64,000 nucleotides of DNA, from the NCBI GenBank assembly GCA_001798185.1, contig MGRM01000006.1, positions 28,976 to 92,975 of the forward strand, written 5' to 3'. A program made the position numbers and the translations under genes. Shown here one piece after another: positions 5,299 through 32,009 of this stretch (the stretch's first letter is position 1; every line of letters starts with the position of its first letter). Source of the stretch: Deltaproteobacteria bacterium RIFCSPHIGHO2_02_FULL_44_16. GTDB lineage: Bacteria > UBA10199 > 2-02-FULL-44-16. Under the pieces are notes generated by a model. The model had not been told where the DNA came from, did no database searches, and saw only the letters and a list, made by a program, of their open reading frames with translations.

Positions 5299-5477
5299 TT
5301 CTTACTCCTTTTCAAAACCGCGCGAGGGTAAGGCTTTCGCAGGGTATCTCGAGGCAAATTTTATCAGCCGGGATATCATAAATAAAATTTCCGAGAGCTA
5401 AGCAAACGCTGTGGGACGACCCACAGCGGAGCGGCCCGAGAAAGCTTACCCGAAGCAGGTTTTGAACATGTAATACC

Positions 5478-12636: not shown

Positions 12637-13350
12637 GTGTTTAATTTGTTTCTTTGGCTCGGCACCCATCTCGGAATTTCTCACACCTGGATGGAACATC
12701 ATCTCCATCAAGTGACGGCTACATTTGTCACGAGCGTCATCGCTCTTTTGAGTTTCATTGCCTGGCAACGTCTGCGGCATCCTGAAAAGTGTCTCGTTCC
12801 TCAAAAGAAACTGACTCTTTCAGGACTTTTTGAGTTTATGGTTGCATCACTCCTGAAACTGATGCGCGATGTGATGGGAGAGCGAGCTGATCGCTATTTC
12901 CCACTGATCGGATCTCTCTTTATCTATCTCCTTTTCTCAAATCTTTTGGGACTTATTCCGGGATTTTTGCCACCAACGGAAAATGTAAATACCAATCTCG
13001 CATGTGCCTTGGTAGTTTTTGTTTATTACAATGTGGTTGGCATTAAAGAGCAGGGAATTAAAAATTACATTAAGCATATGGCTGGCCCGATCATCTGGTT
13101 AGCGCCTTTGATGCTGGCGATTGAAATTATTAGCCATCTCGTACGACCGGCGTCACTTTCAATTCGTCTGTTTGGAAATATTACTGGAGATCATCTCGTT
13201 TTAGAAATCTTTAGTAATCTCGTGCCGCTGGTTGTCCCCATCATTTTTATGCTGCTTGGAATTTTTGTCTCGTTTATTCAGGCCTTTGTCTTTACGCTTT
13301 TGTCGATGGTCTATATTGCACTGGCAACTGAGCATGAGGCACATCATTAA
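12637..13350 (+). CDS. atpB: F0F1 ATP synthase subunit a
   Basis: SIRLFGNITGDHL carries the conserved Arg of subunit a. 5-6 TM helices. Confidence 0.9.
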   Translation: MFNLFLWLGTHLGISHTWMEHHLHQVTATFVTSVIALLSFIAWQRLRHPEKCLVPQKKLTLSGLFEFMVASLLKLMRDVMGERADRYFPLIGSLFIYLLFSNLLGLIPGFLPPTENVNTNLACALVVFVYYNVVGIKEQGIKNYIKHMAGPIIWLAPLMLAIEIISHLVRPASLSIRLFGNITGDHLVLEIFSNLVPLVVPIIFMLLGIFVSFIQAFVFTLLSMVYIALATEHEAHH

Positions 13351-13361
13351 TAAGAGGATTA

Positions 13362-13507
13362 CCAAAACTGATTCACATTTTCTCTCGGGGTACAGACGCT
13401 GCGGTTACGCTCCTCGCGTCTTCTGTTTCCATCGGCGCGATCTTTTAAATTTGCATCGACGCGCCTCAGTCAAAGGCCCCCTGCGAAAAAATCTTCACCA
13501 GTTTTGG
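13362..13507 (+). repeat. intergenic repeat element, family 1, copy A (~146 nt; closing stem CCAAAACTG...CAGTTTTGG)
   Basis: About 90% identical to 35378-35496. Internal ACAGA(C/A)GC...GTCTTCTGT hairpin. Copy A has an internal insertion of about 27 nt. Confidence 0.6.
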
Positions 13508-13547
13508 TAAAGATAACAATTAAAACTTACTTACAAGGAGGAGAAGG

Positions 13548-13874
13548 ATGAAACGAATGTTCACGTGGTTAGGGGGAGTTGTGGTATCGATGTTTGCATC
13601 AAGTGCAGCTTTTGCTGAAGAAGCAGCAGCTCAAGCAAGCAGCGGAAACATGGGATCAGCATTGGCAATTGCTGCTGGATTTGGCATCGGCATTGCTGCT
13701 TTCGGTGGCGCGCTGGGACAAGGCAAAGCAGCAGCAAGCGCCCTTGAAGGCATTGCTCGTAATCCAGATGCTGCTGGAAAAATCCAGACACCGATGATTA
13801 TCGCATTGGCACTGATCGAATCACTCGTCATCTACGCTCTCGTCATTGCATTCTTATTGATGAACAAAATTTAG
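13548..13874 (+). CDS. atpE: F0F1 ATP synthase subunit c with an N-terminal presequence-like extension
   Basis: [16 protein letters not shown]...ARNPDA...IESLVIYAL is the c-subunit hairpin. Strong AAGGAGG Shine-Dalgarno before the 13548 ATG; the core c subunit would begin at about 13652. Confidence 0.85.
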
Positions 13875-13880: not shown

Positions 13881-13954
13881 GCGCTCGTAGCTCAGTGGAT
13901 GAGAGCATCTGACTACGGATCAGAAGGTCGCAGGTTCGAATCCTGCCGAGCGCG
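13881..13954 (+). tRNA. tRNA-Arg (anticodon ACG)
   Basis: Cloverleaf: acceptor GCGCTCG/CGAGCGC, anticodon loop CTACGGA, T-arm GCAGG-TTCGAAT-CCTGC. CCA is not encoded. Confidence 0.85.
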
Positions 13955-14068
13955 CAGAAAATTTGGCGCAGACAAATTTTCCCCGACGAACGAAGAACGT
14001 CAACGAATAACGGCGCCAAATTTCGTTTTTCGCTCACGTAATTCGTTCTTCAAGAAGAGAAAGTTCCT

Positions 14069-14527
14069 TTGTTATACAAAGCAACACTCATTGAGTTTAC
14101 TCAGGCCTTCAAGGGCAGAAGAACATGGCTGCACGCAGATGTGGATGAGTCGGTTTCCCACTATCCCGGTGATCATGATTCAGATGCCATACACGTGGGA
14201 GTTTTTTTCAAACAAACCCTGTTCGTAGGAATCGGCTCATTATTGCCGGATTCCAATCATAAGCTCGTACGTCCAGGTGCTTGGCGTGTGCGTGGCATGG
14301 CGATAGCGCCGGAACATAGGGGGCACGGAGCTGGCGCTGTTTTGATGCAGCATCTGCTTGCCATAGCGAAGCAGAAAGGTAGGAGCGGATTGTGGCTAAC
14401 CGGTCGCGAAGATTCCACCGGGTTTTACAAAAAATTTGGTTTTGAGACACAAGGCAAACCGGTTTCGCATGTTGTTGGCAAACTTTTTTTTATGCAAATG
14501 TCTTTATCGACAAAAACGTCCGAATGA
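14069..14527 (+). CDS. GNAT family N-acetyltransferase
   Basis: VRGMAIAPEHRGHGAGAVLMQHLLAIAKQKG is acetyl-CoA binding motif A. Confidence 0.75.
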   Translation: MLYKATLIEFTQAFKGRRTWLHADVDESVSHYPGDHDSDAIHVGVFFKQTLFVGIGSLLPDSNHKLVRPGAWRVRGMAIAPEHRGHGAGAVLMQHLLAIAKQKGRSGLWLTGREDSTGFYKKFGFETQGKPVSHVVGKLFFMQMSLSTKTSE

Positions 14528-14722
14528 TCATAAAAAATCAGGCCGCCAGCTTGGCCATTTCAGCACACACCGCTCTAAAATCGTCGCCGAGCACGCAATC
14601 TTTATATCGAAATCCCAAAGCTCACCTTAAATTTCTCTTGCGACTTCCAATAAAATATGAGTAAATTTCGCTCTATCACAAAAAACTCATGTGTTTTTTA
14701 CGATAAGGATTAAAAAATACAT

Positions 14723-15859
14723 ATGGAAAGATATATTAAACAAGGTGTTTTCAAGGATTTAAACAGAAAAATGGTTTTTGTCGGTGGTCCACGGCAAGTG
14801 GGAAAAACAACCTTTGCAAAGAACCTCTTAGAAACCTGGCCAGATCAACTCTCTTCAACCGTGCAACGTTATTATAGTTGGGATGATGATCGTGATCGCG
14901 AATTTTTGCTCGCTAAACAGCTCCCTTTTTCTCCTGGTCCAGTCATCCTCGATGAACTGCACAAATATCAAAGATGGCGTTGGCTTCTCAAAGCACTGTA
15001 TGACAAGCGGGGAAATGAGTTGCAGATTTTAGTGACGGGGAGTGCAAAGCTTGATTATTACCGACGAGGGGGCGATTCTCTTCAGGGACGATATCATTAT
15101 TACCGCCTCCATCCCCTTTCGCTCAAAGAACTCTCTTCGCAAACAACATCATCGCTTCGCGATCTGTTGATGTATGGCGGATTTCCCGAACCTTTCTTTT
15201 CAGCTTCAGAAACAGAAACGAGACGTTGGAGCCGAGAATACCGGTCTCGTGTCCTGCGCGAAGAGCTTCGAGACCTTGAAAAAGTGAATGATATTTCGCT
15301 GATCGAACGGATGGCGATACGCTTGCCGACGCTTGTTGGAAATCCTCTTTCACTCAATGCTCTGAGAGAGGATTTGCAAGTGTCGCATCAAACCGTCGTA
15401 CGCTGGATGAATATGCTCGAACGACTCTACAGTATTTTTCGCATTTATCCCTTCGGAGCTCCCCATATTCGCGCCGTAAAAAAAGAAGCAAAACACTACC
15501 ACTTTGATTGGGCACAAATTCCGGAAACAGGATTTCGTTTTGAAAATATGATCGCCTGTCACCTTTTGAAATGGTGCCATTTTTTTGAAGATACCGAAGG
15601 ATGGGACATGGATCTTCGATATTTTCGAGATACGGATAAACGAGAAGTCGATTTTGTAGTGCTCAAAGAACGAACACCGATCCTTTTTGTGGAGTGTAAA
15701 ATATCTTTTCAGGAAGCAAGCGGTCATTTGAAGTATCTCTCCAGAAAGTTTCCCGGTGTCGAGGCTGTGCAGATTCACTTCGACGGGGACGAAGATATCA
15801 AAACGGATGAGGGTATTCGACTTTGTCCAGCAGCAACATTTTTGAAGCGCTTTGTTTGA
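14723..15859 (+). CDS. ATPase, AAA+ superfamily (AAA_14/DUF4143-type)
   Basis: Walker A GGPRQVGKTT and Walker B ILDELH. Paralogue of 37072-38238. Confidence 0.75.
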   Translation: MERYIKQGVFKDLNRKMVFVGGPRQVGKTTFAKNLLETWPDQLSSTVQRYYSWDDDRDREFLLAKQLPFSPGPVILDELHKYQRWRWLLKALYDKRGNELQILVTGSAKLDYYRRGGDSLQGRYHYYRLHPLSLKELSSQTTSSLRDLLMYGGFPEPFFSASETETRRWSREYRSRVLREELRDLEKVNDISLIERMAIRLPTLVGNPLSLNALREDLQVSHQTVVRWMNMLERLYSIFRIYPFGAPHIRAVKKEAKHYHFDWAQIPETGFRFENMIACHLLKWCHFFEDTEGWDMDLRYFRDTDKREVDFVVLKERTPILFVECKISFQEASGHLKYLSRKFPGVEAVQIHFDGDEDIKTDEGIRLCPAATFLKRFV

Positions 15860-15878
15860 TCCTGCTTGAAGCAAATAT

Positions 15879-15900
15879 GGCGTGGCAATCCTGCCGTGCG
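15879..15900 (+). repeat. degenerate copy of the tRNA-Arg 3' end (putative att remnant)
   Basis: AATCCTGCCGTGCGCGCAAAGAAATTT versus the tRNA 3' end AATCCTGCCGAGCGCGCAGAAAATTT. Confidence 0.5.
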
Positions 15901-15926
15901 CGCAAAGAAATTTTAAGTATTAAAAC

Positions 15927-16640
15927 TCATCTGTCTTGTTGCGTTTTTTTCAAACACCTTTTTCGCCAACCATCCCCGTGAGAAAAACCAAAAACTTCTG
16001 CTCCAAGACAGAGGTCGCGTTGCATGCGGGTGTCATAGGTGTCGGAAGAATCAAGAAACAATCGAATTTCGTCTGCAGTGACTTTTCCGTCATTCTTGCC
16101 TTTTTGCGCTTCAGCATTTGCGTCGTTTGGTCGCTTTGCCTTGTCAATTCTTGTGAGGTAATCAACTTTTATAGGGAGTTTGGAACGATATGATACGAGG
16201 CCGTTAAGGGCAGCAATGATGTCGTCTCTTATATCAAATTTGTTTTGGGCAGTGATACCTCTGGAAAGCCTGTCCACTTCACGAACTTTACCGATCATGT
16301 GGAGAACGATTTTTAGAGGAGGAGAAAATTCATCGTTGAATTGAAATGCTTCATCGAGCGAAAGCTTTCGATCTCCATCTCCAAAGAATGATTCATACGT
16401 ACGAAGCGCTGAAAAAGTTCCCGCTGGTGCGGAGGGAAATTTTTGTTGAAATGTTTCAGCATTTTTCAGGCTTATCCCCTCAACGCCTGTGTACTGCGTA
16501 AGGTCACTTCTAGAAAGATAGCCATCTGATTGGCCGGGACGTCTTTTCCCATTTACTCCATCAGGTGCTTTATCAAGCACATCAAGCATCGATGCAAACT
16601 GTCGGATAACGATATCAACCATTGGGTTTCCTCCATGCAT
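15927..16640 (-). CDS. hypothetical protein
   Basis: 237-aa ORF. No recombinase or other motif found. Confidence 0.3.
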   Translation of the reverse strand: MHGGNPMVDIVIRQFASMLDVLDKAPDGVNGKRRPGQSDGYLSRSDLTQYTGVEGISLKNAETFQQKFPSAPAGTFSALRTYESFFGDGDRKLSLDEAFQFNDEFSPPLKIVLHMIGKVREVDRLSRGITAQNKFDIRDDIIAALNGLVSYRSKLPIKVDYLTRIDKAKRPNDANAEAQKGKNDGKVTADEIRLFLDSSDTYDTRMQRDLCLGAEVFGFSHGDGWRKRCLKKTQQDR

Positions 16641-16821
16641 TCTCGAATCATAATCGACCCTCTCTTAAAATAGTTGCTCCTTTTATCTTCTCGAGAAGAC
16701 TGATTTCAAAAAGATTCCAACAAGTTAGATGAAAAAAAGATTTTTAAAATGATTCTTGAAGAGAGAACGAATCTGCATCATATTCTGCGCAACTTCTTGG
16801 ACGCAATCACGATAAACGGAT

Positions 16822-17283
16822 ATGGCTGATAAAGTTCAAAATACAGTCATCATCGCAACAACCCTTCCTCCTCGTCAGGAACCAATATCAATCGAGGTTC
16901 CCAATGCCTTTACAGGAGAGCTCCAACAACAACCAACTCCTGAACAATGTCTTCAAATTTGTCAAAATGCTCTGGCGCAAATAAAAAAATTACGACTTCC
17001 AAATACTCCACCAGGGAAACTTCTCTCGCTTCCAGCTTTTGAAGCTTTGAGTTTTCCCGAGATACCAGTCGTACTAACGCCAGAGGATTTTTATGAATGC
17101 TTGCGCGGTCACCCCCAATTTACTCAGATCAATACATCTACTCAGGCCAATGTAGCAGATACTTCAGCACAGATTTGCTTTGGAATCAGTAAGGTACCCG
17201 AACCTCGGGAACCTGATCTCTTCCCTTTGAAAGATTTGCCCATAAGAGAAGTGCATCCGGAAAGAAAAAAAGAGGGAAAATGA
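16822..17283 (+). CDS. hypothetical Pro/Gln-rich protein, overlaps the subtilase start by 4 nt
   Basis: ATGA overlap with 17280. Confidence 0.3.
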   Translation: MADKVQNTVIIATTLPPRQEPISIEVPNAFTGELQQQPTPEQCLQICQNALAQIKKLRLPNTPPGKLLSLPAFEALSFPEIPVVLTPEDFYECLRGHPQFTQINTSTQANVADTSAQICFGISKVPEPREPDLFPLKDLPIREVHPERKKEGK

Positions 17284-20200
17284 TTTCACACTTGTTTCAA
17301 AAACTGAGTCTTTATTTTTTCCTCCTCTTCTCCATCTCATGCGGATCAGGATTGATGTTTGACGAGGAACAAAATCCTGAAGTAGTTGAAGATATCTCTT
17401 CTGCAGCTGACGAACCTGTCTCCATGACGGCAAAAGACATGATTCCCTCAACGGAGGCAGATTTCTCCCTCAACACGGTCATCGGCATTGAAACCTCCAA
17501 TCGTTTTTTGGCGGTTGCCCTCAAGCTTGAGGCAACGGATCAAGATTTTAGAGAAATCCAGACAAGCGTCCCTGAGTGTCGTGTGGGAGGCATGGTTCCT
17601 CTGGCAAAAATATTTCAGCTCGATTGCCAGTCGATCGTAGGCAACTTTGAGCAACTGAAAACAATACGCGATCGACTTGCGTCTCATCCAAAAATTTTAG
17701 CTGCAGCATTTGATTCAAGGGTTCATGGGAACTCTCTTCCTCCACATCCTCCAACGGTCTACCGAAACTGGAAAGATCCAAGTGGCCCAACATGGGGGCT
17801 TCGGGCCATCGGTGCTCCGCAAGCTTGGAGTCTCAATAATCAACTCAAAAAATTGAACCGCCCTCTGACGGAAGTCATGGTCATCGATATCGGCTTTTAT
17901 CCTCATCCCGATCTTCTTCATCTTACTTCCATCGGAACTTCTGTTACGGAAACGTGTCCCCATCCTGCCGGCGCATCAGGTCTCGATAGGTGCGAGCATG
18001 GAACACTTGTCAGTGGGATCATTGGAGCGAATTGGGAGAACAAAAAAGATGTGGTGGGAGTCAGTCCTTTTGTCAACGTGCAGGCAGCGGACATAAGTTT
18101 GTTTGATGATCCAAATGCTTCAATAGGAGATTTTAGTGCTCCAAGCTTTCTTGACGTGGCCTCTGCAATTTCTGTTATTCATATCCTTCCATCCCGCCCT
18201 CGGATTGTAAATATGTCCATCAGCGATTTTCCCGATTGGAATACTTCCTGTTTTACCGTTCCAGGTTCTTCTCGCAAAGCTCGCTGTGACCCGCGCTTCA
18301 TCAATCGCGTTCAGGATGGTGATGCCTGTGATCCGCATCTGGTGGAACAGGAGATACAAAGTAAGGCAAACATATTTGCACAAGTTATTGATCAATTGAA
18401 CTTTAACTCTCCCAAAACTTTTTTTGTGGTTTCAGCTGGAAACGAATCGGGAATCGACTTTGCGCCAACCGAAATTTACTGTTCCGCTCAATGCGTCTCG
18501 GGAGGATCATGCCTCAAAAAAGGACTTGGCAATTTTCCTGCGGATTTGAATTCCTCCTTTACGAATGCCTTAATTCATCTTCCTGCAGGACAACATGGAA
18601 TCGTGGTGGAGGCGCTTCAACCACTACGAAATCGATCTGCCTACAGTAATGTTGATAGCGGCGGTGTCTTTGCTCCAGCTGATGAAATCGCAAGCCTTGG
18701 GAAGAGTGGCAATACTTTCACTACTGTCATTCGTCCCTATGGCGGAACGTCGAGCGCCGCTCCTCACGTCAGTGGAGCAGCTGCCTTTTTGCTCGCAATT
18801 GAACCTGAGTTAAAGAATCAGGATATCAAGATTCTTTTAAAACAAAATATTGGAGGATTTTCCTGCGCCACAGCTCTTTCTCAAGCTGGAACATCGACCG
18901 CCACCATGGTCAATCTCTTCAAAGCTTCGCACTGCATTGATCTTCTTCTTCGTTTTCAAAATCCTACCGGCCGTCTCAGTGTTGGAGAGATGTATGCAGA
19001 TGTCAGCGATGGAAGTGCTGATGGAAATGAAATCATTCCTCTTGATGACAACAGCTCTCCCATTTCCAACCGTTATCATGTTCCGACCTGGGGTGATGAT
19101 GTCATTTCCATTCGCGACTTTCGTGTCTTGCGTGATCATCTTCTGCTTCATGAAGATGTTTCTTATCAATCTTCTGCGCAGGTTGTTGCCGCTCTTGCCG
19201 CCCAGAGCGATCGCCTTGATCTGAATGAAGATCTTGAAATCATCGATCTCACTTTTAATCCCGATGGAGAAAACTACTCACGCGCTGATTTTAATGGAGA
19301 CGGGAAAATCAGCAGTTCAGCAACAACCTCTTTTGCGGGAAATCAACTCACTGATCTCGATGTTTTTCTTTTAAGTTACCGAAAAAATAGGGGCTATCAA
19401 AACGATCTTCCGTCATGGCCACCTGATGCTCTTGCGGGACTTTTGAAATCAGCAGATATCTGGATACGTCCGGATAGAGGTGTTGGAGATCTTGAAATCG
19501 AAATACAAGGAGATAGGGGAGTGATAGAGCCTGCTGATGTAAGTCCGCTCCGAGGAATTCGCATTCCATCGGGAACAACTGAGGCTGTTCTCACCACTCC
19601 AAGGCTTCTGAATCCAAAACTGCTTGTCACACAAGATTGTGATGATGTCCCGCGTCAAACAACGTATGAAATAGCACTGAATGATCTTGCACCTGGAGAA
19701 GACAGAGTCGTTCCGATTCCCACAAAAAACTGCAGCCGCTGGACGAGAAGGCGTGATGCCCCGAGCGGTAATCCGCGGTCTGTGGCCGTCGATTACAACG
19801 GCGGTGCTCAGACCATCAACATGGAAGAGCATCAATTCTTCCCCCCTTCCGGTTCATTTCCTGCCTTTGATGTTCTTTGGGACACCGACATCGATTGCGC
19901 TGCCAATACCTATACGAAAGTTGAATATGTCAATGGTCGGCCGAATAATCGACACTTTTTTTCGAACTACAGTCCCGGATGTCCCGTGCCTGATCTCCCC
20001 GGACTTCAGAGGGCCAATACCTTTAACGTTCACATAAGCTGCGACGGAGGATTTCAGAATAATCTCACTTTCACTCAGGATGACGGACAAAGCTATTCGT
20101 ATACTTTGCCCAATGGGGTAAGCGAAACCTATCAGTGCATCGGGTGCCAACAACCCGACCTCTCACAAGCCTGTCACTGCGATCCCTCGCTTGCTGTGGG

Positions 20201-20366
20201 AAGTCTTGATCCATCCTTTATTAGCTGTCCCACATGCACGAACTGCATCCCGGAATTTCCTCGGCACCGGTGCACCTTCCAGAAGACCGTCGGTATACGA
20301 GCACTCGAACCGATCTGGTCCTTTTATAAGGAATTGTGGGCAGTCAGCTGTACTCCGCTTCCTTAA
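17280..20366 (+). CDS. subtilisin-like serine peptidase (S8 family) lipoprotein with a C-terminal Cys-rich extension of about 600 aa
   Basis: Lipobox FSISCGSG. Catalytic triad contexts VIDIGF (Asp), HGTLVSGIIGA (His) and GTSSAAPHVSGAAA (Ser). Confidence 0.85.
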   Translation: MISHLFQKLSLYFFLLFSISCGSGLMFDEEQNPEVVEDISSAADEPVSMTAKDMIPSTEADFSLNTVIGIETSNRFLAVALKLEATDQDFREIQTSVPECRVGGMVPLAKIFQLDCQSIVGNFEQLKTIRDRLASHPKILAAAFDSRVHGNSLPPHPPTVYRNWKDPSGPTWGLRAIGAPQAWSLNNQLKKLNRPLTEVMVIDIGFYPHPDLLHLTSIGTSVTETCPHPAGASGLDRCEHGTLVSGIIGANWENKKDVVGVSPFVNVQAADISLFDDPNASIGDFSAPSFLDVASAISVIHILPSRPRIVNMSISDFPDWNTSCFTVPGSSRKARCDPRFINRVQDGDACDPHLVEQEIQSKANIFAQVIDQLNFNSPKTFFVVSAGNESGIDFAPTEIYCSAQCVSGGSCLKKGLGNFPADLNSSFTNALIHLPAGQHGIVVEALQPLRNRSAYSNVDSGGVFAPADEIASLGKSGNTFTTVIRPYGGTSSAAPHVSGAAAFLLAIEPELKNQDIKILLKQNIGGFSCATALSQAGTSTATMVNLFKASHCIDLLLRFQNPTGRLSVGEMYADVSDGSADGNEIIPLDDNSSPISNRYHVPTWGDDVISIRDFRVLRDHLLLHEDVSYQSSAQVVAALAAQSDRLDLNEDLEIIDLTFNPDGENYSRADFNGDGKISSSATTSFAGNQLTDLDVFLLSYRKNRGYQNDLPSWPPDALAGLLKSADIWIRPDRGVGDLEIEIQGDRGVIEPADVSPLRGIRIPSGTTEAVLTTPRLLNPKLLVTQDCDDVPRQTTYEIALNDLAPGEDRVVPIPTKNCSRWTRRRDAPSGNPRSVAVDYNGGAQTINMEEHQFFPPSGSFPAFDVLWDTDIDCAANTYTKVEYVNGRPNNRHFFSNYSPGCPVPDLPGLQRANTFNVHISCDGGFQNNLTFTQDDGQSYSYTLPNGVSETYQCIGCQQPDLSQACHCDPSLAVGSLDPSFISCPTCTNCIPEFPRHRCTFQKTVGIRALEPIWSFYKELWAVSCTPLP

Positions 20367-20413
20367 AGAATCATTGTTCTTTCCCATGTGCTGTCCGAAG
20401 GAAACGATTTCCT

Positions 20414-20495
20414 ACAGACATTTTGTCTGCGATTACTCTTAATTTTACAGACATGTCGTCTGTATTTTTATGTTATTTACAGACACTTTGTCCGT
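20414..20495 (+). promoter_or_regulatory. array of three palindromic operator-like sites (ACAGACA-N2-4-GTCTG) at 32-33 bp spacing
   Basis: acagacattttgtctg at 20414, acagacatgtcgtctgt at 20447, acagacactttgtccgt at 20479; upstream of the TIGR02147-like gene. Confidence 0.5.
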
Positions 20496-20537
20496 AAAAT
20501 ACTTGCGCTTGTTTTCAAAGAGCGTAGAGAAATAGTC

Positions 20538-21386
20538 ATGATTCCAGGAACACTTTTTCAATATACCGATCCTCGAGAAATTCTCGTTCAGATTTTTCAG
20601 GATAAAAAAGAGCGAAACCCAGCTTACTCGATTCGCGCATGGGCTCGTCAGCTCGGATTCAAAACGCCTTCCTATCTTTCTGATGTTCTACGAGGTAAAA
20701 CTCCACTCAAACCGGAACTTGCCCTCAAAATTGCACGAATACTTGATGTCCCTGAAGACGAACGCCGCTATTTTGAAACACTTGTCTTTCATGCAAGTGC
20801 TTCAAGTGATGGTGAACGTGAATTCTACGAAGCGACACTGAAAAAATATCGACCAGATGAACAAATTAAAGAATTCAGCAATGACTTTTTCGATCGCGCA
20901 AAAAGTTGGGTTTATTGGCTTACCGATGAAATGATCTTTCTTAAAGATTTTCGAGAAAACTACGCATATCTTGCAAAGCGCATCGGCGATGATGTGACAC
21001 CCCAGATGGTGGAAATTGCCATGAAGGAAGAAGAAGAAATTGGACTTCTTCAACGCAACAACAAAGGGGAAATCATTCGTAAGGAACGTTATTGGGTTCC
21101 CCTTCGAGATACCGTACGCAAACAAAATATCTATCACGAAAAAGTAAGACGAAAATTTGCTGAGCGCGCAGTAGATGCTTGTACATCGCAGCCTCCTGAA
21201 GAAACTTTTTTTCTTTCGAGTGCGCGACCGATTCGAAAAAAAGATATCCCAAAAATAAAAGAATTTTTGATGCAGATGATTCGTGATTTGACACAAGAAT
21301 TTCAGCCAAAACAGGGAGATGCAGATGAAGTCTTTGCCGTAGATGTTTCATTCTTTCGTTTAACGCTTGGCGAACCAGAAAAATAA
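20538..21386 (+). CDS. TIGR02147-family protein (HTH-containing, function unknown)
   Basis: N-terminus ...FQDKKERNPAYSIRAWARQLGFKTPSYLSDVLRGK...ERRYFETLV matches the characteristic TIGR02147 N-terminal pattern. Confidence 0.55.
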   Translation: MIPGTLFQYTDPREILVQIFQDKKERNPAYSIRAWARQLGFKTPSYLSDVLRGKTPLKPELALKIARILDVPEDERRYFETLVFHASASSDGEREFYEATLKKYRPDEQIKEFSNDFFDRAKSWVYWLTDEMIFLKDFRENYAYLAKRIGDDVTPQMVEIAMKEEEEIGLLQRNNKGEIIRKERYWVPLRDTVRKQNIYHEKVRRKFAERAVDACTSQPPEETFFLSSARPIRKKDIPKIKEFLMQMIRDLTQEFQPKQGDADEVFAVDVSFFRLTLGEPEK

Positions 21387-21396
21387 AAAGGGAGGA

Positions 21397-22686
21397 ATGA
21401 TGAAACGACATATAACTCTTCCAAACGCAATCGCACTGGCGGTGAGCCTCGTCGTGGGGACCGGTATTGTGAGTCTCATGGGACTCGCGCTTGAAGTAGG
21501 TGGACCACACGGTTCCATCTTTGGATGGCTCGTTGCTGCCCTTGTGATTACCCCTTTTCTTGTCATCTTCAGCCATTTAAGCGGGCGTTCCCAAAATAAA
21601 AATGGGCTCTCCGATTGTGCTGCTGAAGCACTCGGTGAAAAAGTTGGTCGAGGTTTTCACCTTCTTCTTCTCGTTCTCATCTTCATTCTTCTTCCTGTTA
21701 TTGCGTTGATCGGTGCAACATATCTTCAGGAAGCTCTTGGGCTCACTGAAACGTGGCGTTCATTTCTTGCGATCGCGCTTCTCTTTGCTGCCACACTGAT
21801 CAATCTTTTAGGAGCGTGCAAAGCGAGTCTTCTCAATAAACTTTCGGTTACCATTCTCCTTCTCATGCTCCTTTCATTGATCCTCTATTACCACAACTAT
21901 GCCGTTCTTGGGATTCAGGCGCTCATTTATCCAGAAGAAAACAGTGTGCCCATTGATTTGAGTCATGTCTGGAAAGTAGCAGCCCTTGTGATCTTTGCCT
22001 TTTTGGGTTGGGAAAATGTCATGCTTGCCGCACCGGAAATGAAGAATCCACAGAGAACGATACCACTCACCTTTGCAGGGAGTTTTGTCATCGTCGCTCT
22101 CCTCTATCTTCTTCTTGCACTTATCATGCTCGGAGCATCGATTGCAGGTCTGAAGACAACAGGACTGGCTGGTATGGCGATCCTTTTCAAAGGAATGCCA
22201 GGAGGGTTCATTCTTTCAGCAAGCATTGGGTTCATCAGTCTCGCGAATGCTTCATCATGGATGTATGGCTTAAGCCGCACAATACAAACGTCGAGCCAAA
22301 AAGGAGAACTTCCTGTTGCGCTAAGCGAAGTTTCACGAACAGGGGTTCCGTGCTTTGCGCTTCTCACGATTTACTTCATCTGTTCTTTGATGCTCTTCGC
22401 TTGTTATTCCGCAAAATGTTCAATCTCAAATCTTTTTCTCATCGTTGTTCAGTTTGAACTCGTCATTTATGGAATCAGTATTTTGACCTTTGTAAAACTT
22501 TTCAAAGGATGGAAGGTTTGGGTGACATCAGCGTTTGCAAGCATTGCGATGATCTTCCTCGTCTCAGGATTCAGTCTTGCCATGATTGCACCGATAAGTG
22601 TTGTTCTGCTTGGTGCATTTCAGCCCTGGAGAAAAGGAGAAAGAGCAACAAAACTCACTCGTCATGTCAAAGAATGTTCTTCATGA
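21397..22686 (+). CDS. amino acid permease (APC superfamily)
   Basis: About 12 predicted TM helices and an APC-type N-terminal region (AIALAVSLVVGTGIV). Confidence 0.75.
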   Translation: MMKRHITLPNAIALAVSLVVGTGIVSLMGLALEVGGPHGSIFGWLVAALVITPFLVIFSHLSGRSQNKNGLSDCAAEALGEKVGRGFHLLLLVLIFILLPVIALIGATYLQEALGLTETWRSFLAIALLFAATLINLLGACKASLLNKLSVTILLLMLLSLILYYHNYAVLGIQALIYPEENSVPIDLSHVWKVAALVIFAFLGWENVMLAAPEMKNPQRTIPLTFAGSFVIVALLYLLLALIMLGASIAGLKTTGLAGMAILFKGMPGGFILSASIGFISLANASSWMYGLSRTIQTSSQKGELPVALSEVSRTGVPCFALLTIYFICSLMLFACYSAKCSISNLFLIVVQFELVIYGISILTFVKLFKGWKVWVTSAFASIAMIFLVSGFSLAMIAPISVVLLGAFQPWRKGERATKLTRHVKECSS

Positions 22687-22692
22687 TGTTCT

Positions 22693-23013
22693 TCATGATT
22701 CCGAAGGTTGGCGCTGATACAATATCTGTCCAACTTCTTCTATATGTTTGCGAAACTCGGGACGTTCGATGGTGACAGCATCGACAACATCAAAGTGATA
22801 AGGAAGAGGCAACTCCTGATTCAAAATCGTGCTGACGCGGGTCGTGCATACAAGCGAACCATCTCCATAAAGAGCAAGATCAACATCCGATCCGGGCTTA
22901 AAATTGCCAATCGCCCGGGAACCAAAAATACGTACCTCACGGACTTCAGGAAACTCTGCAAACGTCTTTCGCAACATTTCCAGATGCGACGGTTTAAGCC
23001 CCCATGGCGTCAT
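22693..23013 (-). CDS. minimal nucleotidyltransferase (MNT), toxin-antitoxin type
   Basis: IFGSRAIGNFKPGSDVDLAL is the GS...DxD Pol-beta NTase motif. 106 aa. Confidence 0.75.
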   Translation of the reverse strand: MTPWGLKPSHLEMLRKTFAEFPEVREVRIFGSRAIGNFKPGSDVDLALYGDGSLVCTTRVSTILNQELPLPYHFDVVDAVTIERPEFRKHIEEVGQILYQRQPSES

Positions 23014-23423
23014 GACGTCATCTTCTGCCGAAAGTAGCCCACCAGTTGCGATAACGCTGGCGCATAGCCCTTTCGAATAATGGTTAACGCCCGCTCTGCA
23101 GCAGCTTCATCATAGGTATGAGCCATCTGATTTCGCTTTTCGAGCATATCCATCCAGATATCGCCATCAACAATGAGTTGATAGTGAAACGCCTCTTTCA
23201 TAACCTCGCGAGGAAACTGGACGGTAACATTTTGACTCTCCAGATAGTCCTTGAGAGTCTTCCATGCCAGTTCAAAGGTAAACTCAAAACTCTGAATGAT
23301 CCCCTGTTTCTCGACGTCATTGGGAGTGATGATTGCAAGCCCTTTTTCAAGCTGAGCAAATGCATGTTGCAAATTGGTAAAGCGTTGTTGCCAGCGTATT
23401 TTTTTATTCATCGTTTCTTTCAC
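23010..23423 (-). CDS. HEPN-domain protein (nucleotidyltransferase substrate-binding protein, HI0074 family)
   Basis: 137 aa. R-x4-6-H-like motif (EKRNQMAHTYDE). Overlaps the MNT gene by 4 nt. Confidence 0.7.
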   Translation of the reverse strand: MKETMNKKIRWQQRFTNLQHAFAQLEKGLAIITPNDVEKQGIIQSFEFTFELAWKTLKDYLESQNVTVQFPREVMKEAFHYQLIVDGDIWMDMLEKRNQMAHTYDEAAAERALTIIRKGYAPALSQLVGYFRQKMTS

Positions 23424-23467
23424 TTTTCATATTCTATCTCTTTATTCAACGATTCTTTATTGAGCCC

Positions 23468-24043
23468 TCAATTGCTGATCTTGCCATGATTGCTTCTGCC
23501 TTCAAGTATCTCCTCTAATGCATACAATGTTTTCTGAGGAATACGGTCGAGGGGGTAATAGTGCTGAATGACGTCGAGCGCTTGCTGATAAGAATCGATA
23601 TTCAGATATCGTAATAAAAAACGGACATCCTCGATATCGTAAAACTCTTCTCCAATACGCATCGCTAAACATTTCATGGCGAGAAGATATTCTGGCTTTG
23701 CTGTATAAACCCGAAGATGACTGAGCTCAAGATAAGGGGCATATTTTCCTTTATCAGATAAGTATCCTTTTACGGCATCGTTCAACCAGTTCCCATCAAG
23801 ATTCATCTGATGTGCGACACGGAGAGCAGCTTGACGCATTTTTGCTGCAGGTTCAAAAAAACCATCAATGTCTTTTGTGGACGAACGAACTTTAAACACG
23901 AGACACATCACAGCGCCACCTACAAGATAAAGCTCACCTTGTTGATCGTCGCGTTTGAGTTCTTCATTTAAACGCTCAAATAATTTTTCTATGTCGTGTG
24001 AAGAGAGCGCCATCTCTAGATCCTCCCAAAAATCAGATGTCAT
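23468..24043 (-). CDS. nucleotidyltransferase-fold protein (second, larger NTase)
   Basis: LVGGAVMCLVFKVRSSTKDIDGFF is a GG-x13-DID NTase signature. Confidence 0.5.
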   Translation of the reverse strand: MTSDFWEDLEMALSSHDIEKLFERLNEELKRDDQQGELYLVGGAVMCLVFKVRSSTKDIDGFFEPAAKMRQAALRVAHQMNLDGNWLNDAVKGYLSDKGKYAPYLELSHLRVYTAKPEYLLAMKCLAMRIGEEFYDIEDVRFLLRYLNIDSYQQALDVIQHYYPLDRIPQKTLYALEEILEGRSNHGKISN

Positions 24044-24114
24044 TCCCGCGAAGGCGGGAATCTACTTGTTTATCAGCTTTTCTGGATCCCCGCTTTCGCG
24101 AGGATGACATTCAT

Positions 24115-24615
24115 CTAGATCCTTTCTCCAATCGTGGCATCTATAAAAATATTTCGTCGTCGAAAAGGCACAGGACTATGTGCGAGAAGATAGAGCTGTA
24201 AATTTTTGAATGAACTTCCAAAATAAGGTTGTGGAAGTGGTGCAATTTCTTGAGTCCATGTTGGGACTTGAATTCCCTTCTGATGTGCGGCCACTTCGAC
24301 CATTGCCACAACATAGTTTTGTTCAAGTTCTGACAATGAAGATAATTTCGGTTTGAAAAAAACTGCTTGCTCGAACTCCATCGCAGAAAGATTCTTTAAA
24401 AAATCGTGCAGTTCAGCATATGCCATTTTCTGCTCTGACAACTTCGCAAGTTGCTCCACAAGATGTTCAAATTTTTCTTGAAGTGGAGGAAAGAGACGAA
24501 GAAAAATCCACTCCGACATTCCAAGGCCTGCCTTTTGCGCTGCTGTCTGAATTTTTTTCTTGATCGATAATGAAATACGGATTTGAAGATATTCCGATTT
24601 TGCGTTCTTTTTCAT
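24115..24615 (-). CDS. hypothetical protein with an N-terminal ribbon-helix-helix-like segment
   Basis: YLQIRISLSIKKKIQTAAQKAGLGMSEWIFLRL resembles RHH/MobC-type antitoxin N-termini. Confidence 0.35.
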   Translation of the reverse strand: MKKNAKSEYLQIRISLSIKKKIQTAAQKAGLGMSEWIFLRLFPPLQEKFEHLVEQLAKLSEQKMAYAELHDFLKNLSAMEFEQAVFFKPKLSSLSELEQNYVVAMVEVAAHQKGIQVPTWTQEIAPLPQPYFGSSFKNLQLYLLAHSPVPFRRRNIFIDATIGERI

Positions 24616-24696
24616 GAGGTTACACTAACACCAATATCCATTGGTGTCAATACACATGTAGTGACAATAACAATCTCTCAAACAACTCCAAGTTCA

Positions 24697-24722
24697 AATC
24701 CTGCCAAGCGCGCAAAAAGAGA
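24697..24722 (+). repeat. second degenerate copy of the tRNA-Arg 3' end (putative att remnant)
   Basis: GTTCAAATCCTGCCAAGCGCGCA versus the tRNA GTTCGAATCCTGCCGAGCGCGCA (21 of 23 positions). Confidence 0.5.
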
Positions 24723-24790
24723 AGGAGAAAGTTCTTCCAAGCTGGTTCCCAAGTTGCGCTGTATGGCGCGGCGGCATGTTACATGCATCA

Positions 24791-25414
24791 TTATTTTGGT
24801 GATGGTTCAACAGTTGTCGTTGTTGGGCTTCTCTCTACAGTATTTGTTGAGGGACCTCGTGCTGCTCTAAAACAACAGTGAGCTTCTGTTCCGTAAGCTA
24901 AAGGAGGTCGAGAGGTATATTCACCCTTCGTAATCACAACACTTTTTTGATGCTCTGAATAATCAAGACTACACGGACCTTGAACCGTCGGAGCAAAAGC
25001 AGCATTTCCCTTTTTTGCCCATACACAGCTATAGGCAACATCTGGTGCGGAGGCATTTCCTTGACAAACATTTTTCTTGTCATTGCCAACATACGCTTTG
25101 AAACCGGTGACACAAAGAGAATCGGACATCTTTTTTAACGCATCAGCATCTAACACTTTTCTGAGATCCCCCTCTTTGGTGGTCGAGGTTGTTGTATTTG
25201 ATGTTGTCGTGGTCACTGGTATCTCTTTTTTCGCGGGACGAACAGCCGGCGCTGTTGACCTGGTTTGAGTGGTCGTCTGCTCAATCGTTGTTGTTTTCTT
25301 ATTATTGTAAGTATCGGCCGCATGTGAAAGAGGACCACTGAACAAAACCCCTAAAGATAGGCCCACAACAACAAGTTGCACTTTATTCCACCTGAATATA
25401 TTTTTTTGTGTCAT
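24791..25414 (-). CDS. secreted Thr-rich hypothetical protein with a Cys-containing C-terminal domain
   Basis: Signal peptide (LVVVGLSLGVLFSGPLSHA), a poly-Thr linker, and six or more Cys residues in the C-terminal half. Confidence 0.4.
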   Translation of the reverse strand: MTQKNIFRWNKVQLVVVGLSLGVLFSGPLSHAADTYNNKKTTTIEQTTTQTRSTAPAVRPAKKEIPVTTTTSNTTTSTTKEGDLRKVLDADALKKMSDSLCVTGFKAYVGNDKKNVCQGNASAPDVAYSCVWAKKGNAAFAPTVQGPCSLDYSEHQKSVVITKGEYTSRPPLAYGTEAHCCFRAARGPSTNTVERSPTTTTVEPSPK

Positions 25415-25539
25415 TTTATTTCTCCCTTTTTGTTGACGTTTATCTCTCTTCGTCTCGAAGACCAGTGTAGAAGAATGACCTCTCATAACCAGCGGGGGAG
25501 ATGGGATTTATAAATGGGGAATTTCCCTAAGATTATTTC

Positions 25540-26189
25540 CTATTTTTCCGACAGGCACCATTTCACGGCATGTCGAATAAGATCATGAGAATTTTTTAAA
25601 TCGAGTTTATTTTTAATATTGGCATAATGAGATTCGATCGTTTTCACGCTTACATGAAGATGCTCTGCAATTTGGCGAGTAGAATAAGCCTGGCCGGTAA
25701 ATTGGAGTACCTCCAGTTCACGGTCGCTCAAGCTGACCGCATAAGAATCATTTGTTGCCGGCGCTTTACCCACAAACTTATACATGAGTTTCTCTTTCCA
25801 ATTGTCGCTCACATAAATACCGCCCTTAAGCACCTTACGAATAGCCAAAATGATCTGATCGCTTGCCTCTCGTTTTGTTAAATATCCTTTCGCTCCGGCT
25901 CGTAAGACGCGCTCTACGTAGACAGACTCGTCATACATCGAAACAATCAGCACTAACATGTGGGTTGTTTGGCTAAAAGAGTCTTGGTTAATTCAAGCCC
26001 GCTTGTTCCTTCTAAAGAAATATCCACGATCACGACATCAGGTTTTTTCTTCTCAATGCCGATGAGGGCTTCTGTTGCATCTCCCGCCTCTCCCACAAAG
26101 AACATATCCTCTTCATGATTGACAAGCTGGGCGATACCTTGCCTGAGCACGGGATGATCATCGACGATAAATATCCTCGCTTTGTTCAC
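25540..26189 (-). pseudogene. NarL/FixJ-family response regulator (REC + LuxR HTH) interrupted by a -1 frameshift at a C-run (~25955-25962)
   Basis: The receiver domain is split between ORF 25953-26228 (IFIVDDHP...DISLEGTSG) and ORF 25540-25959 (MLVLIVSMYDE... + LuxR HTH). Adding one C restores ...LLAKQPHMLVLIVSMYDE. GTG start overlaps the kinase stop (GTGA). Confidence 0.7.
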
Positions 26190-27064: not shown

Positions 27065-27166
27065 CTTGTAAGCTGTTGAAAACTCTGTGAAAAGAAGAAA
27101 TCGAAGAAGAAAAAAACCGCGGGGGTTTATTCCCGCGGTTTCTCTTTTCTCCTACCGTTGACTCTC

Positions 27167-30100: not shown

Positions 30101-30300
30101 AGTTCGCCCTCTATCTCTTCTCCATCTTCGTGATCTACTTTCATATTGCAACTGCGTATGTGTGTGGTTCTTCATTTTTGTTCTCCTTAGTTTCTGGTTG
30201 CTTTCATGGAGGGAGATTATGAAAGCATTGAAGGATGAACAATCGGGAGGAACTACATTTTTTACTGGGGAATTTCTCTACCAGAAAAGATGGAGGACAA

Positions 30301-31896: not shown

Positions 31897-32009
31897 CGCC
31901 ATGTATTCATTCACCAGAGAGAATTTTTTCATCCTAAATCACCGATGGGGATAGTCAACAATTCTTTCTCCTTGAGAACTTCATATCAGAATGATACTGA
32001 ACTACGTTT

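What the first reader, a model, noticed from the sequence alone, without database searches (positions are those of the whole stretch)
13881..24722. tRNA-Arg followed by two degenerate copies of its 3' end: tandem, integrase-less island remnants
An intact tRNA-Arg(ACG) at 13881-13954 is followed by two partial copies of its 3' end. The first, at 15879-15900, matches 17 nt plus similar downstream flank. The second, at 24697-24722, matches 21 of 23 nt. This is the signature of sequential integrations at a tRNA attB site. Segment 1 (~1.9 kb) carries a GNAT and a DUF4143 ATPase. Segment 2 (~8.8 kb) carries the S8 subtilase lipoprotein, a TIGR02147 protein, an APC permease, a HEPN/MNT pair and an NTase/RHH pair. 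I found no integrase, so the islands look old and decayed.
Basis: partly seen in the sequence, partly recalled or inferred. Interest (0 to 1): 0.65.

Follow-up and report, generated by a model that had tools for sequence, protein, structure and literature searches.

The report
Decayed gene-island array at tRNA-Arg
A tRNA-Arg gene in an uncultured groundwater bacterium is followed by about 16 kb of accessory genes split up by two leftover copies of the tRNA's 3' end, the usual scar of mobile elements that inserted one after another and later lost their integrase; this is an ordinary kind of genomic island.

Summary
tRNA-Arg(ACG) lies at 13881-13955. Its last 18 nt recur twice on the same strand, at 15887-15904 and 24697-14 (1 mismatch each). 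Chance predicts 0.06 copies per window. Both copies begin in the T-loop, where many tyrosine integrases cross over.

The integration reading is largely supported.
- The closest available relative (L180, AtpB about 70-73% identical) has atpB-atpE-tRNA-Arg followed directly by three genes that sit at 30301-31932 here.
- The same tRNA in another relative (L101) carries an integrase-plus-primase element.
- A third relative (L010) has its own 1.7-kb, integrase-less unit bounded by a repeat.

Three corrections are needed.
- The extra DNA runs to about 30300, not 24722. This third segment has no distal repeat.
- Segments 1 and 2 show no deviation in tetranucleotide or codon usage.
- All sampled contigs of this population are near-identical, so no polymorphic empty site was found.

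No integrase or resolvase remnant was detected. The "DUF4143 ATPase" is the widespread, horizontally transferred defence candidate PDC-S01.

Verdict: a CIME-like decayed island array, a new member of a known kind, of low to moderate interest.

The parts
13881..13955 (+). Intact tRNA-Arg(ACG), 6 nt downstream of atpE. Its 3' portion 13934-13956 is the left (attL-like) copy of the repeat.
   Evidence: ARAGORN; Rfam tRNA, 73.1 bits; sequence.
13957..15886 (+). Segment 1 (1.93 kb): GNAT acetyltransferase 14069-14527 and AAA_14/DUF4143 ATPase 14723-15859 (PADLOC candidate defence gene PDC-S01). The ATPase has a conserved palindromic upstream region of about 65 nt at roughly 14650-14720.
   Evidence: Pfam; PADLOC PDC-S01, E=1.8e-44; upstream alignment; absent from L180.
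15887..15904 (+). DR2: a 17/18 copy of the tRNA 3' end that starts in the T-loop (AATCC). Gapped flank similarity continues to about 15912.
15905..24691 (.). Segment 2 (8.8 kb): ORFan 15927-16640 (-); ORF 16822-17283 overlapping the start of S8 subtilase 17280-20366; TIGR02147/DUF4423 regulator 20388-21386; amino-acid permease 21367-22686; MNT/HEPN pair 22693-23423 (-); DUF6036 NTase 23468-24043 (-); RHH-like 24115-24615 (-).
   Evidence: Pfam, NCBIfam, PHROGs and PADLOC; ORFan status; none of these genes occurs in any related locus.
24692..24714 (+). DR3: a 21/23 copy of the tRNA 3' end, reaching the start of the T-loop. At both positions where it differs from the resident tRNA it carries the base found in L180's tRNA-Arg.
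24715..30300 (-). Segment 3 (5.6 kb), also absent from L180 but with no distal repeat: secreted Thr-rich protein 24791-25414/25486; LuxR-type response regulator split into 25540-25959 and 25953-26228; histidine kinase 26186-27064; DUF11-repeat protein 27167-30100/30175. The DUF11 region is compositionally deviant.
   Evidence: Pfam; gene calls; no tRNA fragment near 30.1-30.3 kb; tetranucleotide z up to 3.85; DUF11 RSCU distance 0.47.
30301..31932 (-). Conserved right flank: 115-aa ORF, 75-aa ORF and gpsA. In L180 the homologues of these genes directly abut tRNA-Arg.
   Evidence: tblastn L180 against the window: o121 35% (E=1.5e-11), o77 59% (6e-23), gpsA 64% (7e-121). The same triad occurs in L190 and L191.
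12637..13874 (+). Conserved left flank: atpB and atpE.
   Evidence: Pfam. The atpB-atpE-tRNA-Arg(ACG) linkage is shared with L010, L014, L015, L022, L100/L101, L108/L110 and L180.

Best explanation
The stretch 13957-30300 is an accretion of horizontally acquired DNA at the 3' end of tRNA-Arg(ACG). At least two elements integrated one after the other by tyrosine-integrase site-specific recombination, with the crossover in the T-loop to 3'-end part of the tRNA gene. Each integration rebuilt the tRNA from element-borne sequence and pushed the previous 3' end outward. That leaves DR3 (older, outer) and DR2 (younger, inner) as attR-type scars. On this model segment 1 arrived last and segment 2 before it. 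Segment 3 is either the oldest insertion, with its distal scar eroded, or arrived by another route.

The integrase and any transfer or replication modules were later deleted. What remains are att-flanked cargo blocks, that is CIME-like remnants. The cargo is a candidate defence ATPase (PDC-S01), a GNAT, two nucleotidyltransferase-type toxin-antitoxin-like pairs, and a secreted protease, regulator and permease block. The array is now fixed in the sampled population and matches the host in composition.

What is shown: the repeats, their register, the absence of an integrase, absence of the region from L180, and use of this tRNA by an integrase-bearing element in L101. What is inferred: the order of events, the loss of the integrases, and the former mobility of each block.
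For: - The repeats are far above chance and are co-oriented (3 copies observed, 0.06 expected).
- Identity starts in the T-loop: AATCC for DR2 and GTTCAAATCC for DR3. The independent repeat in L010 starts in the same register, GAATCC.
- L180, the closest relative in 5.8 billion proteins (AtpB about 70-73%), has tRNA-Arg followed after 73 nt by homologues of 30301-31932.
- L101 has a Phage_integrase gene (E=5.7e-24) 74 nt from the same tRNA's 3' end, followed by a primase/AAA_25 helicase, a resolvase and a SocA antitoxin.
- L010 has a 1.69-kb integrase-less unit between the tRNA and a 19/20 repeat.
- Both of DR3's differences from the resident tRNA match L180's tRNA, as expected if DR3 is a displaced ancestral 3' end.
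- The cargo is typical of islands. The PDC-S01 ATPase is 60-63% identical across phyla, whereas AtpB reaches at most 73%. Two TA-like pairs sit at the distal end of segment 2.
- Decayed att-flanked elements and tandem accretion are described in PMC5704250. Partial tRNA copies left by successive integrations are described in bioRxiv 10.1101/2020.12.28.424599.
Against: - No integrase, excisionase, relaxase or replication gene is present, not even as a fragment. The recombinase step is therefore wholly inferred.
- Segments 1 and 2 cannot be told from the rest of the window by tetranucleotide usage (z from -1.3 to +0.8), GC3 or RSCU.
- All 19 contigs of the population are 99.8-100% identical and share the same layout, so no empty or partly occupied site was seen.
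- The empty-site comparison rests on one relative of roughly genus-level or greater divergence. That relative also lacks core genes found between gpsA and PilZ here and carries a 17-nt tRNA 5' fragment beside its tRNA.
- In L190 the gpsA triad is not next to tRNA-Arg.
- Segment 3 has no distal repeat.
Confidence: 0.6

Rival explanations
1. Segment 1, and the analogous L010 unit, are not decayed remnants. They are complete, small, integrase-less cassettes that carry only an att copy, and an integrase encoded elsewhere (for example on an L101-type element) inserts and excises them in trans. The locus would then be a tRNA-anchored cassette array.
For: - Two genera each have a two-gene unit of 1.7-1.9 kb bounded by repeats in the same T-loop register.
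- A matching integrase-bearing element uses this tRNA in L101.
- The PDC-S01 ATPase gene moves between genomes as a compact unit that includes its own upstream palindrome.
- In L024 it is bracketed by a 47-nt direct repeat.
Against: - No integrase was found in the 64-kb window.
- No excised or alternative junctions appear in the population contigs.
- The two small units share no genes.
- Closely related ATPase genes in L187, L188 and L189 lie next to no tRNA and have no flanking repeats.
- The repeat flanks in L199 look like copies of a dispersed small element, not att sites.
- Only 2 small units were seen in about 7 loci.
Confidence: 0.15
2. The region is essentially native. The two short copies are debris of tRNA-gene duplication or rearrangement, unrelated to how the flanking genes arrived. 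L180 reached its compact state by deletion.
For: - Segments 1 and 2 have host-like composition and codon usage.
- L180 has a tRNA 5'-end fragment immediately after its tRNA, which shows that tRNA debris arises at this locus.
- Synteny around gpsA is fluid among relatives.
- TIGR02147 and S8 families are common in this lineage (L189 and L190).
Against: - Both copies are 3'-end fragments in direct orientation that start in the T-loop. That is the geometry integration produces, and random debris would not be expected to show it.
- None of the roughly 16 genes in 13.9-30.3 kb has a homologue in any of about 190 related loci, apart from the mobile ATPase and a distant DUF4423.
- The S8 gene in L190 is not an orthologue.
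- An integrase-bearing element sits at this tRNA in L101.
Confidence: 0.15
3. The short matches are coincidental.
For: The matches are short (18-23 nt) and imperfect.
Against: 0.06 matches are expected and none of 100 shuffles reached 3. Both copies are on the tRNA strand, downstream of it, and in intergenic DNA at gene-block boundaries. L010 shows a parallel repeat.
Confidence: 0.01

Closest known systems
CIMEs (cis-mobilizable elements) and tandem accretion at tRNA or other att sites, as described for ICESt1-related elements and streptococcal IMEs (PMC5704250, citing Pavlovic et al. 2004 and Bellanger et al. 2011)
   Same: The blocks are att-flanked and have lost their integration and transfer genes. 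They lie in tandem at the 3' end of a target gene, separated by copies of that end.
   Different: No functional ICE or IME partner is present, and no relaxase or oriT is recognisable (there is only a sub-threshold NikA-like/RHH hit). Derivation from an ICE or IME, and cis-mobilisation, are untested. The host is an uncultured Deltaproteobacteria-type groundwater lineage.
tRNA-flanked genomic islands built from successive integrations with partial-tRNA scars, for example Prochlorococcus islands and tycheposons (bioRxiv 10.1101/2020.12.28.424599), and the Dehalococcoides ssrA island arrays (PMC3146451, title and abstract only)
   Same: An intact tRNA is followed by cargo blocks separated by partial tRNA copies, with newer arrivals pushing older ones outward. 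Degenerate blocks lack an integrase. The L101 element (tyrosine recombinase plus primase-helicase) resembles the tycheposon module layout.
   Different: No integrase or replication module survives in this window. Membership in the tycheposon family was not tested by phylogeny. Only three blocks are present.
T-loop sublocation class of tRNA-gene att sites used by tyrosine integrases
   Same: The repeat identity begins in the T-loop and runs to, or just past, the 3' end of the tRNA gene (18-23 nt).
   Different: The integrase is unknown, so the crossover position is inferred only from the limits of identity.
Integron cassette arrays
   Same: A linear array of small gene units separated by short recombination-site-like repeats. 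Segment 1 is of cassette-like size.
   Different: There is no IntI, attI or attC-type imperfect palindrome. The repeats are tRNA 3' ends, and segments 2 and 3 are multi-gene blocks with their own regulators.
PDC-S01 (PADLOC phage-defence candidate; AAA_14 ATPase fused to a PD-(D/E)XK-type DUF4143 domain)
   Same: The ATPase at 14723-15859 matches PDC-S01 models at E=1.8e-44. It keeps the Walker A and B motifs and a D...EVD...ECK nuclease-like motif. PMC12988326 describes the family as very common and repeatedly transferred between domains.
   Different: Defence activity has not been shown experimentally for most PDCs. Linkage to a tRNA att scar is particular to this locus.

Membership tests
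tRNA-targeted integrated genomic island (tyrosine-integrase type) | Lies immediately 3' of an intact tRNA gene | tested here: met
   The tRNA-Arg ends at 13955 and the extra DNA begins at 13957.
tRNA-targeted integrated genomic island (tyrosine-integrase type) | A direct repeat of the tRNA 3' portion at the distal boundary | tested here: met
   DR2 is 17/18 and DR3 is 21/23, against 0.06 expected. This is not met for the outer end of segment 3.
tRNA-targeted integrated genomic island (tyrosine-integrase type) | Encodes an integrase (tyrosine or serine recombinase) | tested here: not met
   No Phage_integrase or Resolvase hit in any ORF of 13.9-30.3 kb. phmmer --max with the L101 integrase and resolvase against six-frame translations of the whole window gave best E values of 0.64 and 1.9. 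Intergenic gaps are 200 nt or shorter.
tRNA-targeted integrated genomic island (tyrosine-integrase type) | Absent from related genomes at the same site (empty site) | tested here: inconclusive
   L180 has the tRNA directly followed by homologues of 30301-31932. It is the only informative relative, it is only about 70-73% identical in AtpB, and it carries a tRNA 5' fragment. All conspecific contigs are occupied.
tRNA-targeted integrated genomic island (tyrosine-integrase type) | Composition or codon usage deviating from the host | tested here: not met
   For 13.9-24.7 kb the tetranucleotide z ranges from -1.3 to +0.8, and RSCU and GC3 lie within the core range. Only the DUF11 region of segment 3 deviates (z up to 3.85).
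CIME (cis-mobilizable element) | Retains attL and attR | tested here: met
   Segment 1 is bounded by the tRNA 3' end and DR2. Segment 2 is bounded by DR2 and DR3.
CIME (cis-mobilizable element) | Lacks integration and transfer genes | tested here: met
CIME (cis-mobilizable element) | Derived from an ICE or IME by deletion, and mobilisable in cis after accretion with a functional element | not testable with these tools
   This needs closer relatives that carry the intact parent element, or excision and transfer assays.
Integron cassette array | IntI integrase, attI, and attC sites bounding promoterless cassettes | tested here: not met
   There is no integrase. The repeats are tRNA 3' ends, not attC palindromes.
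PDC-S01 candidate defence gene | Match to PADLOC PDC-S01 models with the AAA_14 + DUF4143 architecture | tested here: met
   PDLC04790 at E=1.8e-44. Pfam AAA_14 at 1.4e-23 and DUF4143 at 4.2e-20.
PDC-S01 candidate defence gene | Confers anti-phage protection | not testable with these tools
   This is stated to be unvalidated for most PDCs (PMC12988326).

The most novel reading that the evidence does not exclude
Segment 1 here and the 1.7-kb unit in L010 are intact members of an undescribed class of tiny, recombinase-less gene cassettes. They target the T-loop to 3' end of tRNA-Arg(ACG) and are shuffled in trans by integrases of L101-type elements. The locus would then act as a tRNA-anchored, integron-like cassette array that, among other things, distributes the very common PDC-S01 defence ATPase. 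A bolder variant is that the PDC-S01 ATPase-nuclease promotes its own insertion, which would explain its solitary, repeat-flanked occurrences.
Probability: 0.08. Interest if true: 0.65.

Novelty: new member of a known kind. Interest (0 to 1): 0.28.

Why it matters
The locus shows that in this poorly known groundwater lineage (Rifle-type Deltaproteobacteria MAG, GCA_001799065.1) the atpE-linked tRNA-Arg(ACG) is a recurrent entry point for accessory DNA. That DNA includes a candidate anti-phage ATPase and toxin-antitoxin-like pairs. The locus also gives exact boundaries for about 16 kb of flexible genome. This helps annotation and island-prediction benchmarks, because composition-based methods and integrase-based methods would both miss it. 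It does not change how such islands are thought to form.

Tried and rejected
- **Empty site within the species.** All contigs carrying AtpB or the MNT protein (L001-L009, L090-L099) are 99.8-100% identical to the window and have the same layout. The missing GNAT gene call in L090 and L093 is a gene-calling difference, not a sequence variant.
- **Closer relatives.** The genome and metagenome scans with AtpB gave at most 62% identity. The 5.8-billion-protein search gave at most 73%. So no close comparator exists in these collections.
- **Fourth repeat at the outer edge of segment 3.** None was found, even at 5 mismatches in 24 nt.
- **Integrase remnants.** Sequence searches with the L101 integrase and resolvase found nothing. 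The ORFan at 15927-16622 sits where L101 has its integrase, but it has no similarity to it, no homologues in 1.8 billion representatives, and only a low-confidence all-helical model (pLDDT 50.7). I did not run a fold search on that model.
- **Compositional foreignness of segments 1 and 2.** Rejected.
- **S8 protease near gpsA in L190 as an orthologue, which would make segment 2 native.** There is no similarity at E<=1e-4.
- **PDC-S01 ATPase on viral contigs.** None was found with the single protein or with the 34-sequence alignment. No solved structure exists.
- **Flanking repeats as a general property of the ATPase unit.** They are seen in L024 (47 nt) and L199 (about 240 nt at roughly 80% identity, probably a dispersed element), but not in L187, L188, L189 or L192. 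With so few loci this stays inconclusive.
- **Upstream palindrome as an RNA hairpin.** It does not fold significantly (z=-1.1).
- **Rfam.** Only the two tRNAs were found.

Full report
**Observation**

ARAGORN and Rfam both call an intact tRNA-Arg(ACG) at 13881-13955, 6 nt after atpE. Its terminal 18-mer, AATCCTGCCGAGCGCGCA (13939-13956), has exactly two other matches in the 64-kb window with up to 3 mismatches. Both are on the same strand and downstream: 15887-15904 and 24697-24714, each with 1 mismatch. Dinucleotide shuffles predict 0.06 matches, and none of 100 shuffles reached three. The outer copy extends 5' to 24692, giving 21/23 identity. The inner copy shares a gapped flank with the tRNA. 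A search with every sub-fragment of the tRNA found no other convincing piece in the window and nothing near 30.1-30.3 kb.

**Anatomy**

- Segment 1 (13957-15886) holds a GNAT and an AAA_14/DUF4143 ATPase.
- Segment 2 (15905-24691) holds an ORFan on the minus strand right after DR2, a 153-aa ORF overlapping the start of a 1003-1028-aa S8 subtilase, a TIGR02147/DUF4423 HTH protein, an amino-acid permease, an MNT/HEPN(NTase_sub_bind) pair, and a DUF6036 nucleotidyltransferase with a weakly RHH-like partner.
- Beyond DR3 lie a secreted Thr-rich protein, a LuxR-type response regulator split over two overlapping ORFs, a histidine kinase and a DUF11-repeat protein of about 980 aa. These are followed by two small ORFs and gpsA.

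No ORF has an integrase, resolvase, relaxase or replication domain, and no intergenic gap exceeds 200 nt. I also searched six-frame translations of the whole window with phmmer --max, using the tyrosine integrase and the resolvase found in a related locus (L101). The best E values were 0.64 and 1.9.

**Source and population**

The window is identical to ENA contig ERZ27254845:k141_2282630 (244.7 kb). It also matches NCBI MAG GCA_001799065.1 (MGSB01000027.1) and contigs from the ANAN16 and SRR2090155/SRR2090161 samples. All 19 retrieved conspecific contigs are 99.8-100% identical and carry the same layout as far as they reach. No empty or partly occupied site is visible in the population.

**Relatives**

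AtpB scans of the genome and metagenome collections found nothing closer than 62% identity. The 5.8-billion-protein search found one at 73% (P0010) on a 5.3-kb contig of MAG GCA_016202335.1 (L180). L180 reads atpB-atpE-tRNA-Arg(ACG) and then, 73 nt later, three minus-strand genes followed by PilZ and TerC. Those three genes are homologues of window 30301-30648 (35%, E=1.5e-11), 30645-30872 (59%, 6e-23) and gpsA 30856-31932 (64%, 7e-121).

Relative to L180, the whole of 13957-30300 (16.3 kb) is therefore extra. That prediction is wrong in detail, because those genes and the DUF11 protein are part of the variable DNA. None of the roughly 16 genes in this stretch has a homologue in about 190 related loci, apart from the ATPase and a distant DUF4423.

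Several caveats apply.
- L180 is probably a different genus.
- It also lacks core genes (rpe, fmt, def) that lie between gpsA and PilZ here.
- It has a 17-nt copy of the tRNA 5' end just after its tRNA, so its compact state may itself be a deletion scar.
- In L190 the gpsA triad is not next to tRNA-Arg.
- L013 keeps an o75 homologue about 430 nt from an inverted tRNA-Arg, which is only weak support for ancestral linkage.

**Is this tRNA an integration site?**

Several relatives keep the atpB-atpE-tRNA-Arg(ACG) linkage (L010, L014, L015/L022, L100/L101, L108/L110, L180).
- In L101 a 369-aa Phage_integrase protein (E=5.7e-24) lies 74 nt from the tRNA's 3' end on the opposite strand. It is followed by a CHC2-Toprim-AAA_25 primase-helicase, an HTH protein, a resolvase and a SocA/Panacea antitoxin. 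This is a typical integrative element.
- In L010 the tRNA is followed by a 1.69-kb unit that encodes a 23S_rRNA_IVP four-helix-bundle protein and an LCM methyltransferase. The unit ends in a 19/20 copy of the tRNA 3' end and has no integrase.
- In L015 and L110 housekeeping genes follow the tRNA directly.

The L010 repeat and DR2 begin at the same T-loop position, (G)AATCC. DR3 begins five bases earlier, at the start of the T-loop. Identity running from the T-loop to the 3' end is the geometry expected for one known class of tRNA att sites (Williams 2002, recalled from memory). DR3 differs from the resident tRNA at two positions, and at both it carries the base found in L180's tRNA (TTCAAAT T-loop; CCA rather than CCG). 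This fits a displaced, older 3' end, but the chance probability is about 0.1, so it is only suggestive.

**Composition**

Four-kb tetranucleotide windows across 13.9-24.7 kb are no more deviant than the rest of the window (z from -1.3 to +0.8). GC3 and RSCU distances of the genes in segments 1 and 2 fall within the range of core genes of similar length. Only 25-32 kb is deviant (z up to 3.85). That signal is driven by the DUF11 gene (GC 0.50, RSCU distance 0.47 over 2.9 kb), which also contains internal repeats. Segments 1 and 2 are therefore either old and ameliorated or came from compositionally similar donors. Composition gives no positive support for a foreign origin.

**The ATPase**

The "DUF4143 ATPase" matches PADLOC candidate defence family PDC-S01 (E=1.8e-44). 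More than 8000 homologues score at E<=1e-30. Many are 60-63% identical in other phyla (Acidobacteriota, Aminicenantes, Chitinispirillaceae, Thermodesulfobacteriota), whereas housekeeping AtpB falls to 60% within the lineage's own neighbourhood. The closest homologues (68-79%) are solitary genes wedged into unrelated housekeeping contexts with no tRNA nearby (L187-L189). They share a palindromic region of about 65 nt just upstream of the start codon, so the gene travels with its own control region. Homology stops at the stop codon.

The literature describes PDC-S01 as the fourth most common defence candidate, an ATPase fused to a PD-(D/E)XK domain, with repeated inter-domain transfer and no experimental validation (PMC12988326). 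DUF4143 appears in the PD-(D/E)XK survey PMC3424549 (not read in detail). The alignment keeps the Walker A and B motifs and a D...EVD...ECK motif.

In L024 the gene is bracketed by a 47-nt, 96%-identical direct repeat. In L199 it is bracketed by repeats of about 240 nt at roughly 80% identity that look like a dispersed small element. Other loci show none. A second, distant paralogue sits at 37072-38238 in this window. None occurs on IMG/VR contigs. These facts show that at least this cargo gene is horizontally mobile. They do not show how it moves.

**Interpretation**

The best-supported account is serial site-specific integration at the T-loop to 3' end of tRNA-Arg, followed by loss of the recombination modules. 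This leaves att-flanked cargo blocks. That is the CIME/accretion scenario described for streptococcal elements (PMC5704250) and the partial-tRNA scar pattern of Prochlorococcus islands (bioRxiv 10.1101/2020.12.28.424599). On this model segment 1 is the latest arrival, segment 2 is earlier, and segment 3 is earlier still or arrived by other means. I put this at about 0.6.

The rivals are as follows.
- The small units are complete cassettes moved in trans (0.15). Two independent two-gene units in the same register make this attractive, but there is no positive evidence of mobility.
- The region is native, with incidental tRNA debris, and L180 lost it by deletion (0.15). Host-like composition and the tRNA fragment in L180 favour this. 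The strict 3'-end, direct, T-loop-registered geometry and the lack of homologues in relatives argue against it.
- Chance (about 0.01).

**Novelty and interest**

This is a new instance of a well-known kind of structure, in an under-studied lineage. It is useful for annotation and as a case that integrase-based and composition-based island finders would both miss, but a specialist would not find it surprising. The only potentially novel thread is tiny recombinase-less cassettes at a tRNA, possibly tied to the spread of PDC-S01. It rests on two loci plus anecdotal flanking repeats, and I rate it at about 0.08.

Noticed in passing
window 13400-13510 and 35414-35500: A dispersed repeat of about 85-110 nt. 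The atpB-atpE intergenic region and a site between rpe and fmt share two blocks at roughly 93-97% identity, with a 24-nt insertion in the first copy. There is no Rfam match. It could be a small regulatory RNA, a REP-like element or a MITE-like element.
   Followed up: partly
window 25540-26228 (-): A LuxR/GerE-type response regulator is split into two overlapping ORFs: the REC N-part at 25953-26228, and the REC C-part plus GerE at 25540-25959. The same split occurs in all population contigs. It is either a frameshifted pseudogene or a programmed frameshift.
   Followed up: no
window 37072-38238 (+): A second, distantly related (23% identity) AAA_14/DUF4143 ATPase sits alone between def and a 720-aa unknown gene. 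This stretch is also absent from L180 between gpsA and PilZ.
   Followed up: partly
window ~14650-14722; L187 5665-5737; L188 ~500-567; L189 3120-3187: A conserved palindromic region of about 65 nt, centred on CTCATGAG, lies immediately upstream of PDC-S01-type ATPase genes in unrelated genomic contexts. It is probably an operator that travels with the gene. In L189 it is a perfect palindrome with 32-nt arms.
   Followed up: partly
L024 2628-2674 and 3976-4022: A 47-nt direct repeat (96% identical) brackets a single PDC-S01-type ATPase gene in an intergenic region of complete MAG CP064976.1. The repeat is too long for an ordinary target-site duplication.
   Followed up: partly
L199 ~3530-3780 and ~5200-5450: Repeats of about 240 nt at roughly 80% identity flank another PDC-S01 ATPase. 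Each contains a small HTH-like ORF and a GGACGTCC-containing inverted motif, so they look like a dispersed mini-element.
   Followed up: partly
L192 4001-5140 (+) and 7799-8938 (-): Two inverted 379-aa AAA_14/DUF4143 ATPase genes flank a 2.6-kb stretch containing a PemK toxin pair, a layout like a composite element.
   Followed up: no
L180 1356-1372: A 17-nt copy (16/17) of the tRNA-Arg 5' end lies 18 nt after the intact tRNA in the closest relative. The acceptor stem of that tRNA is also extended by a 10-bp flanking inverted repeat.
   Followed up: partly
L101 6600-12603: An integrative element sits at the same atpE-linked tRNA-Arg. It comprises a tyrosine integrase, a CHC2-Toprim-AAA_25 primase-helicase, an HTH protein, a resolvase and a SocA/Panacea antitoxin. 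Its distal end is beyond the contig.
   Followed up: partly
L010 6865-8553: A 1.69-kb integrase-less unit (23S_rRNA_IVP four-helix-bundle protein plus LCM methyltransferase) lies between tRNA-Arg and a 19/20 repeat of its 3' end. A Fic/DOC gene lies beyond it.
   Followed up: yes
window 15927-16622 (-): A 231-aa ORFan. Its only other hit in 1.8 billion representative proteins is a weak partial match at E=4.9e-5. It matches no family in Pfam, NCBIfam, PHROGs or PADLOC, and its structure model has low confidence.
   Followed up: yes
window 29502-29976: Two 217-nt tandem-like internal repeats (80% identity, spaced 258 nt) inside the DUF11 gene. The surrounding 25-32 kb is the only strongly deviant tetranucleotide region of the window.
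   Followed up: no
window 13958-13980: An inverted repeat, AAAATTTGGCGCAGACAAATTTT, directly follows the tRNA. A similar one follows the L010 tRNA. It may be a terminator or processing hairpin, or part of the att region.
   Followed up: no
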